DNA from: a virus
Taxonomy: Duplodnaviria; Caudoviricetes
Length of the DNA: 60,760 bases
IMG/VR virus record: IMGVR_UViG_3300030060_000709
Coordinates: 1-60,760 of that record
Direction: 5' to 3' (one strand)
Notes under the pieces: generated by a model
What the model saw: only the letters and a program-made list of their open reading frames with translations
The model's database searches: none
Told to the model about the DNA's origin: nothing
Program-made: the position numbers and the translations under genes
In this document: one piece after another, positions 30,324-32,419 of the stretch
Position numbering within the stretch: the first letter of the stretch is position 1
Layout: each line of letters opens with the position of its first letter

Positions 30324-30346
30324 AAAAAAAGGGAGCCGAAGCTCCC
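30324..30346 (-). terminator. Rho-independent terminator closing the early operon that contains the tas-array locus
   Basis: Minus strand GGGAGC-TTCG-GCTCCC followed by T7. Confidence 0.85.
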
Positions 30347-30379
30347 TCAAAAGTGCTGATTGTTATTGGAGAAACATTA

Positions 30380-30640
30380 TCAGCTAGGTCGTAAACCGTA
30401 AACCAAGTATTCGTTTTCACGCAGTCTTTTACCTATACCATCCACCGCACGTACCCAATCGGCTTCTTTCTTGCTCGTAATATATAGAACTGCCAAACGT
30501 CCTTGCATCCACTCTGGGAGTTTATCTATCGAATCATACGCTCCCAAAAGTTCGTTGTCAATACATTCCATACCAATACATGATATATCGACACGTTTAG
30601 TATTATTGTCTATTACTACGTAATAAGCACTGTTGTCCAT
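30380..30640 (-). CDS. Hypothetical protein (86 aa), similar to the C-terminal domain of 32412-33614
   Basis: Start moved to MDNSAYY (AGGAG upstream); LPEWMQGRLAVL...VDGIGKR...YLVY. Confidence 0.7.
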   Translation of the reverse strand: MDNSAYYVVIDNNTKRVDISCIGMECIDNELLGAYDSIDKLPEWMQGRLAVLYITSKKEADWVRAVDGIGKRLRENEYLVYGLRPS

Positions 30641-30676
30641 GCTATTCTCCTGTTTGTTATAACATGTTATAACTTT

Positions 30677-31552
30677 TGACTCGTTCAATCAGACTGGTTT
30701 TCTTGAACTTCTTGACTCGCTTGCTCGAACTGGTTTTCTCCTGCGGCATGACTCGCTTTGTACTCGTTGGTTTTCTAAACTTCCATGACTCGCTAACACT
30801 ATTTGGTTTTCTACATAAATGTGACTCGCTTTTGACCGTTGGTTTTCTAGAGTGTTGTGACTCGCTTGATCAATCTGGTTTTCTCCCTAATCCTGACGCG
30901 CTATTCGGTCATGGTTTTCTTCCTTTTTGTGACTCGCTTTTTTGCCTAGGGTTTCTCGTTATTGATGACTCGCTAACTGGAAATGGTTTTCTTGTCCTCG
31001 ATGACTCGCTTGATTTTTAATGGTTTTCTCACCATCTTTGACTCGCTTACCGACTCTGGTTTTCTCCAAATGGTTGACTCGCTTTCCAATTTTGGTTTTC
31101 TGTTTAACGCTGACTCGCTTCATTGAGGTGGTTTTCTAATTCTCATTGACTCGCTCATTTGCCGTGGTTTTCTCCACTGGTGTGACTCGCTTTGCTTTGC
31201 TGGTTTTCTTGTTCCATGTGACTCGCTCATGGGAAATGGTTTTCTTCCTTGCCCTGACTCGCTTTTTGGTTATGGTTTTCTCAAAATCTTTGACTCGCTC
31301 ATCCACGTTGGTTTTCTTGGGAACCCTGACTCGCTTGGCCTAGCTGGTTTTCTTCCTTTTTGTGACTCGCTTACCGACTCTGGTTTTCTCTAAATGGTTG
31401 ACTCGCTTTTTCATTTTGGTTTTCTTTAATAGAATGACTCGCTCCACGCGGCTGGTTTTCTCCACATGGTTGACTCGCTTTCCTTCCTTTGGTTTTCTGC
31501 GTTAATATGACTCGCTCGTCCATGTTGGTTTTCTTTCCTAACTTGACTCGCT
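30677..31552 (-). repeat. TIGR-type tandem interspaced guide RNA array, 24 units of 36 (three of 37) nt
   Basis: 25 copies of TGACTCGCT and 24 of TGGTTTTCT (+ strand) alternating with variable 9-nt (three 10-nt) spacers; sense unit AGTCA-N9-AGAAAACCA-N9-AGCG; begins 3 bp after the stop of the Nop/IS110-like gene. Confidence 0.93.
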
Positions 31553-31555
31553 TGG

Positions 31556-32419
31556 TTATGCGACCTTGTGGTGTATGCCCAACTTGGCTTTGCTGTACTC
31601 GTCTGCGACAGGTAGACCTTCCAGTGTTCGCCATGCTGTGTACAGATCCACAAGGAACCGCTTGACAGTATAGCGTATCGCCATGTTGTTTATGTGTGCC
31701 TTGGTTTTCTCAGCGTGAACTGGCATGTGTTGTATGCGGCTCTTGTAATTATCGTAGACCTCACGGTACTTACCATTGGTCTTAACAAACGAAGAACCCA
31801 AAACACCAATCAATTTAGTCTTCATAAAGGGATTGAACGATATACCTTTCTTGGTCTGCTCCTTACCCTCTGAATCCAAATAAGTCTGATCCACCAGATG
31901 TTCTTTTATGCGAGACCGACCCTTATCACCCACGACATCAAGCCCTGCGTATGCCCATAATGAACTCGCATACTGCGCTTTGTGAATGTCGAAGCCACTA
32001 ATTATGACAGCCGCCATCGTTGGGCCGACACCTTTCACATCTTCCAAGAAATGCTTGTAGATCGGAAACTTCTTGACCGCATAGGTGATCTGCTTGAGTG
32101 CGTTCTCTTCTGCCGCCACCAGATCGAAATACTGCTGTATCAATGAGAACTCACTGTACTCCGAGATCAACCCATCTTCCTTGAATCGACGTGGAGTCAT
32201 GGTCACAATGCCATCGGTAATCTTCTTGTAACTTGTTCTAAGATTACTCAGTAACAACTTGGCATCAGTGTCCAGAGTCTCCTCCGACTTGCTTGGTTCC
32301 TGACCAATCTTGATCTTGAAGTTTGCTACTACATTATTACCTACTCTGATGCGTGTCTTCTGCATACTATAGAACCCATTGACTGCTGCTTTTAACATTG
32401 CACTTTGAATATCACTCAT
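31556..32419 (-). CDS. tasA: TIGR-associated Nop-domain protein, nuclease-less (TasA-type)
   Basis: 287 aa from MSDIQ (GGAGAAAGGA RBS, overlaps upstream stop); FYSMQKTRIRVGN helix, VKGVGPTMAAVII HhH, SSLWAYAGL, FNP..KTKL, HINNMAIRY..K.FL..LY..WR; related to IS110 C-terminal/Nop fold; no RuvC (DEDD) or HNH domain visible; abuts the dual-repeat array. Confidence 0.85.
   Translation of the reverse strand: MSDIQSAMLKAAVNGFYSMQKTRIRVGNNVVANFKIKIGQEPSKSEETLDTDAKLLLSNLRTSYKKITDGIVTMTPRRFKEDGLISEYSEFSLIQQYFDLVAAEENALKQITYAVKKFPIYKHFLEDVKGVGPTMAAVIISGFDIHKAQYASSLWAYAGLDVVGDKGRSRIKEHLVDQTYLDSEGKEQTKKGISFNPFMKTKLIGVLGSSFVKTNGKYREVYDNYKSRIQHMPVHAEKTKAHINNMAIRYTVKRFLVDLYTAWRTLEGLPVADEYSKAKLGIHHKVA

What the first reader, a model, noticed from the sequence alone, without database searches (positions are those of the whole stretch)
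30686..31543. Guide repertoire shows duplicated guides and re-paired half-spacers
Seen: units 5 (31372-31398) and 14 (31048-31074) share spacer B GAGTCGGTA and differ at one base in spacer A (ACCATTTAG vs ACCATTTGG). Unit 3 spacer A (ACCATGTGG) is one mismatch from unit 14. Units 6 and 18 share an identical spacer A (CAAAAAGGA, 31354-62 and 30921-29) with unrelated B spacers. In the joined target A+revcomp(B), the unit 5/14 difference is synonymous in two reading frames (CAT TTA/TTG GTA; reverse GGT ACT/ACC AAA TGG). Inference: guides diversify by duplication and recombination at the repeats, and units 5/14 may track two alleles of one coding target. No Cas1-like or RT acquisition gene is visible nearby.
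Basis: partly seen in the sequence, partly recalled or inferred. Interest (0 to 1): 0.7.

Follow-up and report, generated by a model that had tools for sequence, protein, structure and literature searches.

The report
Duplicated and re-paired TIGR guide units
A marine phage carries a 24-unit array of two-part guide RNAs (TIGR-TasA) in which some guides are near-copies or share one half, and related phages show that such arrays change by copying, swapping and recombining units at their short repeats.

Summary
Window 30677-31552 (minus strand) is a dual-repeat TIGR array of 24 units, 4 nt downstream of a 287-aa nuclease-free Tas gene. Units 5 and 14 are 17/18 identical. Units 6 and 18 share spacer A. 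Unit 3's spacer A is one base from unit 14's. No shuffle of 1000 reaches these counts.

In 52 related arrays the same pattern is common: 30 arrays are affected, and sharing keeps the A or B role. Two arrays show DNA-level segment duplications that carry rare repeat variants along and break at loop repeats, making chimeric units. Near-identical arrays differ by in-place replacement of single units.

So "duplication and recombination at the repeats" is supported. "Tracking two alleles" is not. The synonymy argument holds for about 9 of 10 random transitions, and no credible target was found. No Cas1 or reverse transcriptase is in the genome.

Caveat: the sample holds several array variants, and all three pairs straddle a branch point in its contig graph. 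Their presence on one molecule is therefore unproven.

The system is a known kind. The mode of array change bears on an open question.

The parts
31556..32419 (-). tas gene: 287-aa nuclease-free Tas (TasA type). Start taken at the ATG where homologues begin; the listed ORF starts upstream at a GTG (32497).
   Evidence: ORF list. Homologues match from residue about 25 of the 313-aa ORF. phmmer finds TasR 9mty_A at E 3.3e-13 and TasH 21kl_A at E 3.8e-6. AF2 model has pLDDT 81.9, and its 10 best Foldseek hits are all TasH or TasR chains. Pfam shows no HNH or RuvC. Y275 is invariant and the C-terminal KLG..H motif is conserved.
30677..31552 (-). Dual-repeat TIGR array: 25 edge repeats, 24 loop repeats, 24 units of 36-37 nt.
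31372..31398 (-). Unit 5: ACCATTTAG - loop - GAGTCGGTA.
   Evidence: An exact copy is unit 11 of L029, where it is single-copy.
31048..31074 (-). Unit 14: ACCATTTGG - loop - GAGTCGGTA, 17/18 identical to unit 5.
   Evidence: This allele was seen only in the window.
31444..31470 (-). Unit 3: ACCATGTGG - loop - GCCGCGTGG. Spacer A is 1 mismatch from unit 14; spacer B is unrelated (6 of 9 differ).
31336..31362 (-). Unit 6: CAAAAAGGA - loop - GCTAGGCCA. Spacer A is shared with unit 18. Spacer B recurs in L028 unit 14 with a different A (ATACAAAAG).
30903..30929 (-). Unit 18: CAAAAAGGA - loop - TGACCGAAT. Spacer B is 2 mismatches from L028 unit 11, which has a different A (ATGAAATCG).
31192..31227 (-). 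Unit 10 with its upstream edge repeat: a branch node in the contig graph of run X1. Upstream is either unit 9 or the tas 3' end.
   Evidence: contigs 30928-31227 and 31198-31426; joint 31218 to 31544 at depth 10.3.
30975..31001 (-). Unit 16: TCGAGGACA - loop - TTTCCAGTT. Spacer B is identical in L027-L030, with other A halves there. The family also occurs with A and B swapped in L035.
30380..30643 (-). Small ORF directly after the array, with AGGAG then ATG at 30643. No family found.
30329..30348 (-). Terminator-like hairpin with T run, the first one downstream of the array.

Best explanation
This is the guide array of a phage TIGR-TasA system. [quoted passage not shown] Its two 9-nt spacers read the two strands of an 18-bp site, A followed by revcomp(B).

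The duplicated guide (u5/u14) and the shared half-spacers (u6/u18, u3/u14) are products of DNA-level change of the array, not of a spacer-capture machine. The steps proposed are:
1. Units are copied, lost and exchanged as cassettes among co-circulating phage variants. Shared units and the 9-10-nt repeats serve as homology.
2. Now and then a breakpoint falls in a loop repeat and joins the A of one unit to the B of another.
3. Copies then drift by point mutation, mostly transitions.

Units 5 and 14 are either a duplicate that took one transition, or two strain alleles of one unit brought into one array by unequal exchange.

Shown: the anatomy, the statistics, the role-preserving pattern, explicit duplications with loop-repeat breakpoints in relatives, and single-cassette replacements. 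Inferred: that the same processes made the three pairs in this window, and which enzymes act.
For: System identity.

Excess similarity in the window: 0 of 1000 shuffles reach it.

In 52 dereplicated arrays (934 units), within-array same-role half matches number 34 at d=0 (expected 0.22) and 45 at d=1 (expected 4.4). Cross-role matches number 0 at d=0 and 11 at d=1 (expected 3.4).

By class, against column-shuffle means:
- whole-unit duplicates 22 (0.03)
- A-only 22 (2.75)
- B-only 20 (3.65)
- swapped within an array 0
- 30 of 52 arrays affected.

DNA-level duplications:
- L063 units 19-23 are a 72-nt loop-to-loop tandem duplication. It carries a rare loop (AGACAACCT) and a rare edge (AATCAGTCA) and yields the chimeric unit CGCATGTTG.GTGGATTAA.
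- L092 units 2-4 match units 9, 11 and 12, with rare loop AGAAAACCG, and the left boundary lies at a loop.

The cassette is the module. Given a shared half, the loop partner is kept in 518/686 and 493/720 cases, the edge neighbour in only 85/617 and 77/650.

In-place replacements: L005/L024 differ at 11 of 958 nt, all in unit 2. L006/L023 differ at 14 of 1030 nt, 10 of them in unit 19, which in L006 is a copy of its own unit 7.

The same kind of pair (one base apart) stands in L009=L010=L011, three assemblies.

Variant junctions at unit boundaries coexist in one sample.

No RT and no Cas1. Transitions make up 133 of 209 substitutions between near-identical units.
Against: - Units 5/14, 6/18 and 3/14 carry only consensus repeats, so no rare repeat variant marks them as DNA copies. 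Their neighbours are not co-duplicated.
- Among 10 closely related array pairs, 0 of 95 changes were half replacements, so loop-repeat breakpoints are rare events.
- No parental unit for the A half CAAAAAGGA was found outside the window.
- Two guide families occur with A and B swapped in different arrays. Repeat-guided recombination cannot do that. It points to target-level selection or to some capture process as well.
- A capture process with a fixed orientation would also preserve roles.
- Phase of the window's pairs on one molecule is unproven.
- My array parser uses mismatch thresholds and dropped a few degenerate units.
- Position 9 of spacer B is A in 60-80% of units, which slightly inflates B-B matches. 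The column shuffle allows for this.
Confidence: 0.62

Rival explanations
1. Target-driven similarity. The similar guides were gained independently, or kept by selection, because they read alleles or paralogues of one target (u5/u14), or sites that share a 9-bp half (u6/u18, u3/u14).
For: Two guide families occur with A and B swapped in different arrays, so the same double-stranded site is encoded in both orientations. That makes 9 pairs at 2 or fewer mismatches among 426,411 between-array pairs, in two independent families.

Both families match neighbouring sites at the 3' end of gene 62 in T4-like phage contigs.

Variants of one family (TTAAAACTA, TCAAAACAA, TCGAGGACA with the same B) look like diverged versions of one site.

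Some variant halves differ by a one-base shift (L030 units 11/15; L006 units 7/11, by eye).

That is a lead, not evidence.
Against: - Within arrays, sharing keeps its role: 42 same-role half-only pairs against 11 cross-role, where chance gives 4.1 and 5 of the 11 belong to one family. There are 0 swapped duplicates. Capture without a fixed orientation would give about equal numbers.
- Rare repeat variants travel with duplicated units.
- The u5/u14 target has 0 hits in the viral collection and 3 chance-like hits in genomes, all the G allele.
- The synonymy argument is uninformative.
- Substitutions between near-identical units are spread over all spacer positions (chi-square p 0.065).
Confidence: 0.2
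2. Assembly chimera. The window's array joins the arrays of two or more co-occurring strains at a shared unit. On this view u5 and u14 (and u6/u18, u3/u14) are versions of units from different phages, not members of one array.
For: Run X1 holds alternative junctions: tas directly to u10 (depth 10.3), u17 to an A21-like unit (6.1), and u4 to a foreign unit to u16 (4.4). Contigs break at u10. The contig with u1-u4 has depth 5.6 against 11-14.5 for the rest. All three pairs straddle the u10 node. No other assembly holds this array order, and the u14 allele is unique to the window.
Against: The six X1 contigs agree with the window at every base, and no second continuation downstream of u10 was listed (12 loose ends were not shown). 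The window is a 60.76-kb contig rated 98% complete. The same kinds of pair occur in arrays recovered identically from several assemblies: L009/L010/L011, L035/L036, L003/L004. Even if the array is chimeric, the half re-pairing would still be real between strains.
Confidence: 0.2
3. Chance resemblance among short AT-rich spacers.
For: Pairs at 2 mismatches and reverse-complement matches are at chance level. Many A-only matches of window units to distant arrays are at the level expected by chance (my estimate).
Against: Two identical 9-mers and 4 pairs at 1 mismatch or fewer, against 0.2 expected; 0 of 1000 in three kinds of shuffle.
Confidence: 0.01

Closest known systems
Dual-repeat TIGR-TasA systems (for example FpTasA of Flavonifractor plautii; Faure et al. 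2025, PMC12045711, sections 4-10 and figure legends read)
   Same: Solo Nop-domain Tas protein. Array of two alternating 9-nt repeats and 9-nt spacers. 36-nt unit. A-rich loop repeat. Array directly downstream of tas. Phage-borne. No adaptation genes.
   Different: The repeats begin with AG and end with CA, instead of the UG...CCA described for TasR arrays. There are 24 units, where the paper most common. A small ORF lies between the array and the first terminator-like site. The paper gives no analysis of how arrays change and calls that an enigma.
TasR (PDB 9mty) and TasH of Salicola phage CGphi29 (PDB 9w04, 21kl)
   Same: Sequence and fold of the Nop domain and coiled coil. C-terminal Y/H loop conserved, as reported for dual-repeat systems (Xu et al. 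2026 preprint, section 10; alignment).
   Different: No RuvC or HNH domain. The first 90 residues or so are helical. The protein would therefore bind rather than cut, as shown for other TasA proteins (Xu et al. 2026, section 12).
CRISPR arrays: spacer duplication, loss and recombination between repeats (my own knowledge; touched on in Faure et al. discussion)
   Same: Repeat-guided deletion, duplication and exchange of spacers, and arrays that differ among close strains.
   Different: No Cas1-Cas2 and no leader-end polarity. Changes are internal and in place. Repeats are only 9 nt. Two repeat kinds give two classes of breakpoint, one of which re-pairs half-guides.
Clustered box C/D snoRNA genes that spread by tandem duplication (my own knowledge; clusters are mentioned in Faure et al. 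discussion)
   Same: Guide RNAs with two antisense elements bound by a Nop-domain dimer, and families that grow by duplication and divergence.
   Different: These are RNA-methylation guides in cellular genomes, not DNA-binding guides in a phage array. No membership is claimed.

Membership tests
TIGR-Tas (dual-repeat) | Tas protein with a Nop domain | tested here: met
   phmmer finds 9mty_A (TasR) at E 3.3e-13 over residues 92-273, and TasH at E 3.8e-6. Foldseek ranks 1-10 are all TasH or TasR chains, probability 1.00, TM 0.51-0.63; IS621 recombinase and Nop5 rank lower.
TIGR-Tas (dual-repeat) | Array of two distinct alternating 8-12-nt repeats with spacers of about 9 nt and a 36-nt unit | tested here: met
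   25 edge and 24 loop repeats of 9 nt. 45 of 48 spacers are 9 nt and 3 are 10 nt.
TIGR-Tas (dual-repeat) | Edge and loop repeats share co-varying end motifs (box D at the start, box C at the end), and the loop repeat is A-rich | tested here: met
   AGCGAGTCA and AGAAAACCA both start with AG and end with CA, and the loop has AAAA. The letters differ from the UG...CCA of TasR arrays. The paper says the motifs may diverge but co-vary.
TIGR-Tas (dual-repeat) | Array next to tas on the same strand | tested here: met
   The first edge repeat starts 4 nt after the tas stop codon.
TIGR-Tas (dual-repeat) | Truncated edge repeats at the array ends, followed by a rho-independent terminator | tested here: inconclusive
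   The first edge repeat is complete and the last has 1 mismatch (AACGAGTCA). The nearest terminator-like site is about 330 nt further on, after a small ORF.
TIGR-Tas (dual-repeat) | C-terminal Y/H processing loop | tested here: met
   Y275 is invariant in 17 of 17 sequences. The C-terminal KLG..H is conserved wherever the alignment reaches it. The feature is described in Xu et al. 2026, section 10. Catalysis was not tested.
TIGR-Tas (dual-repeat) | Array transcribed and cut into 36-nt tigRNAs that guide DNA binding | not testable with these tools
   No RNA run holds the stretch (one search lists 0 on record as RNA).
TasA subtype | No nuclease domain fused to the Nop domain | tested here: met
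   287 aa. Pfam shows no HNH or RuvC. The model has only helices before residue 175.
CRISPR-Cas | Cas1 integrase, and repeats of 25-36 nt of a single kind | tested here: not met
   PF01867 has no match in the whole genome. There are two repeat kinds of 9 nt.
Reverse-transcriptase-driven diversification (DGR-like or RT-linked capture) | Reverse transcriptase gene | tested here: not met
   PF00078 has no match in the whole genome.

The most novel reading that the evidence does not exclude
TIGR arrays have no capture machine at all. Their repertoire is made by combinatorial reshuffling in a phage population. Whole units move as cassettes between co-infecting relatives, and rarer loop-repeat crossovers re-pair half-guides to make new 18-bp specificities. 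The guides are aimed at rival phages. Two guide families of this clade, each found in both A/B orientations, point at the gene 62-regA junction of T4-like marine myoviruses.
Probability: 0.15. Interest if true: 0.85.

Novelty: new member of a known kind. Interest (0 to 1): 0.6.

Why it matters
The two TIGR papers I read both state that how arrays arise and gain spacers is unknown, and that natural targets are undetermined (Faure et al. 2025 discussion; Xu et al. 2026 preprint discussion). Three literature searches found no paper that treats TIGR array change. Supplementary files could not be opened, so a treatment there would have been missed.

This window and about 90 related loci form a natural data set in which the modes of change can be read directly:
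- cassette replacement in place
- duplication
- loop-repeat breakpoints that re-pair half-guides
- point drift.

If this holds, TIGR repertoires are shaped by recombination in phage populations rather than by adaptive capture. That changes how their targets should be sought, and how stable engineered multi-guide arrays can be expected to be.

Tried and rejected
1. Self-targeting. The 24 window guides searched against the window, in both joint geometries, give a best of 3-6 mismatches, like shuffled guides.
2. Relatives' guides against this phage. 783 distinct units give 8 hits at 2 mismatches or fewer over three gap sizes, about what chance gives.
3. u5/u14 target. 0 hits in viral contigs. 3 hits in genome contigs (Sphingobacteriales, Furfurilactobacillus, Prolixibacteraceae), all the G allele, in unrelated genes. 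Judged chance.
4. Targets of u10, u9 and u16. 1, 0 and 1 hits, in unrelated small ORFs. About one random hit per 18-mer seems normal for that collection.
5. Enrichment test for T4-like targets. 734 guides against 686 kb around gene 62 in 85 contigs give nothing beyond the hits that seeded the idea. At gap 0 there are 6 exact and 4 one-mismatch hits, all seeded. Two-mismatch counts are like the controls. A third guide (L092 unit 5) lies 2-3 mismatches from the same gene 62 site in 14 loci, which by my rough estimate is not significant alone. No window guide stands out.
6. L099 and L107, which hold an SNF2 gene with an exact family-1 match, are not relatives of this phage. Only the SNF2 gene matches, at 26% identity.
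7. Reverse-complement or tiling relations between spacers (such as B9/A10) are at chance.
8. Positional constraint on substitutions (seed against edges) is not significant.
9. Co-duplication of neighbours of the window's pairs. B4/B13 differ at 3 of 9 positions, which is marginal.
10. Raw-read phasing was not possible: all runs offered were contigs. Parts of the array without cover in runs X2-X4 say nothing.
11. An RBS/start-codon look of some joined targets was seen by eye and not tested.
12. Earlier notes of this scan on this genome or on look-alike sequence: none.

Full report
WHAT IS THERE

The window is a whole virus record of 60,760 bases, rated 98% complete. Its G+C is about 41%. Its DNA polymerase is only about 33% identical to those of Pseudomonas KPP25-like and Rhizobium phages, so the host is unknown.

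On the minus strand, a 287-aa gene (32419-31556) is followed after 4 nt by an array of period 36 (31552-30677). The array has 25 copies of AGCGAGTCA, 24 copies of AGAAAACCA, and 48 variable stretches of 9 nt, three of them 10 nt.

This is the anatomy that Faure et al. 2025 define for dual-repeat TIGR arrays: edge repeat, spacer A, A-rich loop repeat, spacer B (PMC12045711, section 4). The evidence on the protein is:
- It matches solved TasR (9mty_A, E 3.3e-13) and TasH by sequence.
- An AlphaFold model from 17 homologues (pLDDT 81.9) has TasH and TasR chains as its ten best Foldseek hits.
- It has no HNH or RuvC domain, so it is of the TasA type.
- The tyrosine and histidine of the C-terminal processing loop reported for dual-repeat systems are conserved.

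TasA proteins have been shown to act as RNA-guided repressors (Xu et al. 2026 preprint, section 12).

THE OBSERVATION

The 48 half-spacers hold 2 identical pairs and 4 pairs with at most one mismatch, where 0.2 are expected. None of 1000 shuffles of three kinds reaches that. Weaker resemblances (2 mismatches, reverse complements) are at chance level.

That is my derivation from section 7 of Faure et al..

The synonymy remark is true (2 of 6 frames) but empty. 72% of random transitions are synonymous in exactly two frames and 89% in two or more.

No reverse transcriptase and no Cas1 is encoded anywhere in the genome.

IS THE ARRAY ASSEMBLED RIGHT?

Only contigs of public runs were on offer, not raw reads. 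In run X1, which holds 0.93 of the sampled words and is probably the source sample, six contigs tile the array without a single difference. Units 5 and 6, unit 14 and unit 18 each lie inside a contig with unique flanks.

The contigs end at branch points, and the same run holds other junctions:
- the tas 3' end joined directly to unit 10 (depth 10.3)
- unit 17 followed by a unit that starts like unit 21 (depth 6.1)
- unit 4 joined through a unit known from L029 to unit 16 (depth 4.4).

Several array variants therefore coexist. All three pairs of the finding straddle the unit-10 node, so their co-residence on one molecule rests on the original assembly alone. I put the chance of a chimeric path at about 0.2. 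Even then the re-pairing would be real between strains.

RELATED ARRAYS

The Tas protein found 25 loci in the viral collection and 68 in metagenomes. I parsed 75 arrays of at least 5 units. After dropping arrays that share 80% or more identical units, 52 arrays with 934 units remained. Some viral and metagenome loci are the same contig and fall out at this step.

The closest arrays (L026-L030, Tas 95-98% identical) hold whole-unit counterparts of 15 of the 24 window units, in other orders. Specific cases:
- Unit 5 is found exactly in L029, once. The unit-14 allele is found nowhere else.
- Spacer B of unit 6 stands in L028 with another A. Spacer B of unit 18 stands there too, at 2 mismatches, again with another A. 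So two B halves that have different partners in a close relative both carry CAAAAAGGA in the window.
- Seven window units have B-only counterparts in L026-L030 and none has an A-only counterpart (binomial p 0.016).

HOW GENERAL, AND BY WHAT PROCESS

Within the 52 arrays, same-role half matches are far above expectation. There are 34 identical (0.22 expected) and 45 at one mismatch (4.4 expected). A-to-B matches are not above expectation: 0 identical, and 11 at one mismatch against 3.4.

By class, against column-preserving shuffles:
- 22 whole-unit duplicates (0.03)
- 22 A-only pairs (2.75)
- 20 B-only pairs (3.65)
- 11 cross-role pairs (4.14; five belong to one family)
- no swapped duplicate within an array
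- 30 of 52 arrays affected.

Half-sharing units lie within two units of each other in 15 of 42 cases. Against a rough null of 0.19 this gives p about 0.01.

Role preservation is what copying and crossing-over at the repeats predict. Capture from targets without a fixed orientation would give equal numbers.

Two arrays show the process itself:
- In L063, units 19-23 are a 72-nt tandem duplication running from loop repeat to loop repeat. A rare loop variant and a rare edge variant are duplicated with it. The junction unit joins the A of unit 23 to the B of unit 19.
- In L092, units 2-4 recur as units 9, 11 and 12 with a rare loop variant. The left boundary is at a loop repeat.

Between arrays the unit is the module. 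A shared half keeps its loop partner in 518 of 686 and 493 of 720 comparisons. It keeps its neighbour across the edge repeat in only 85 of 617 and 77 of 650. By my estimate about 210 of the broken pairs are chance matches.

Ten closely related array pairs differ by 58 unit indels, 16 unit replacements, 21 point-changed units and no half replacement. L005 and L024 differ at 11 of 958 bases, all in the two spacers of unit 2. L006 and L023 differ at 14 of 1030 bases, ten of them in unit 19, which in L006 is a copy of its own unit 7.

A pair of units one base apart, like units 5 and 14, stands in L009, L010 and L011, from three assemblies. Substitutions between near-identical units are mostly transitions (133 of 209) and are spread over all positions.

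WHAT THIS MEANS FOR THE FINDING

The inference of duplication and recombination at the repeats is supported for the clade and is the most likely origin of the window's pairs. The pairs themselves carry no marker that proves it.

Loop-repeat breakpoints are the rarer event, and most change is by whole cassettes. Shared units (up to 54 identical bases with their repeats) give ample homology for exchange between co-infecting variants. That would explain why units stay intact, and why unequal exchange can bring two alleles of one unit into one array. This last step is inference.

TARGETS

The window's guides do not match the window, and the relatives' guides do not either. The u5/u14 site was not found in the viral collection. 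It has three hits in the genome collection, in unrelated taxa and genes, all with G.

A side result argues that targets nevertheless matter. Two guide families occur with A and B swapped in different arrays, which encodes the same double-stranded site. These are 9 pairs at two mismatches or fewer among 426,411, in two independent families. Repeat-guided recombination cannot make that.

Scans with their joined sites hit the 3' end of gene 62 (small clamp-loader subunit, in the order 45, 44, 62, regA) of T4-like marine myovirus contigs:
- 2 of 2 hits for one family
- 3 of 10 hits for the other, one or two codons downstream at the homologous position and about 15 nt before the regA start.

I rate that coincidence as unlikely by chance, very roughly 1e-4, judged after the fact. 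A test of 734 guides against 686 kb of such contigs found nothing further. Three more scans with window guides gave 0 or 1 unrelated hits. It is a lead, not a result.

VERDICT

This is a real and statistically solid feature of an ordinary new member of the TIGR-TasA family. The value lies in the open question it touches. Both TIGR papers I read call array growth and natural targets unknown. Three searches found no paper on either, and supplementary files could not be read.

Noticed in passing
L027 unit 12, L029 unit 16, L030 unit 10 against L035 unit 10; L005 unit 6 and L009 unit 4 against L020 unit 4: The same guide occurs with spacers A and B swapped in different arrays: TTAAAACTA.TTTCCAGTT against TTTCCAGTT.TTAAAACTA, and CAGATTTGT.CACGGAGCA against CACGGAGCA.GAGATTTGA. 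The second case spans clades with different loop repeats. Both orientations encode the same double-stranded site.
   Followed up: partly
L104:10224-10241, L103:2193-2210, L106:132-149; L098:6476-6493, L097:4507-4524: The joined sites of those two swapped families lie next to each other at the 3' end of gene 62 (clamp-loader small subunit), just before regA, in T4-like marine myovirus contigs. This is a possible natural target in rival phages. It was not borne out by an enrichment test on 686 kb.
   Followed up: partly
window 30928, 31011-31397, 31218-31544 (run X1): One seawater run holds at least three other unit orders of this array at depths 4-10, so array variants coexist in one sample.
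   Followed up: partly
L005 against L024 (unit 2); L006 against L023 (unit 19): Otherwise identical 1-kb stretches differ only in the two spacers of one unit. In L006 the replacement is a copy of the array's own unit 7. This looks like cassette conversion bounded by 9-nt repeats.
   Followed up: yes
L009:1476-1730 (the same in L010 and L011): The array is split in two by about 250 nt that hold a small ORF, and the array resumes afterwards.
   Followed up: no
all arrays, spacer B position 9: The base before the edge repeat is A in 60-80% of units in most arrays, so the edge repeat is in effect about 10 nt long.
   Followed up: no
window units 2, 5/14, 6, 15, 16, 19, 21 against L026-L030: Compared with the closest arrays, seven window units keep spacer B but have an unrelated spacer A, and none shows the reverse (p 0.016). 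In the pooled within-array data, A-only and B-only sharing are equal at 22 and 20.
   Followed up: partly
L003, L006, L008, L022, L023 and others: first and last units: The first unit (..ACGGG.AAGAGCAAG type) and the last two units (GAAGGACAT.TCCTTACGA and ATAGGGTGG.AAAGGACAT) hold their place while the interior is reshuffled. There is no sign of growth from one end, as there is in CRISPR arrays.
   Followed up: no
L001, L031, L032: Close relatives of the tas gene (92-93% identical) carry short, decayed arrays with many repeat mismatches.
   Followed up: no
window 30380-30643 and 30329-30348: A small ORF of no known family sits between the array and the first terminator-like hairpin, so it may be co-transcribed with the array.
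   Followed up: no
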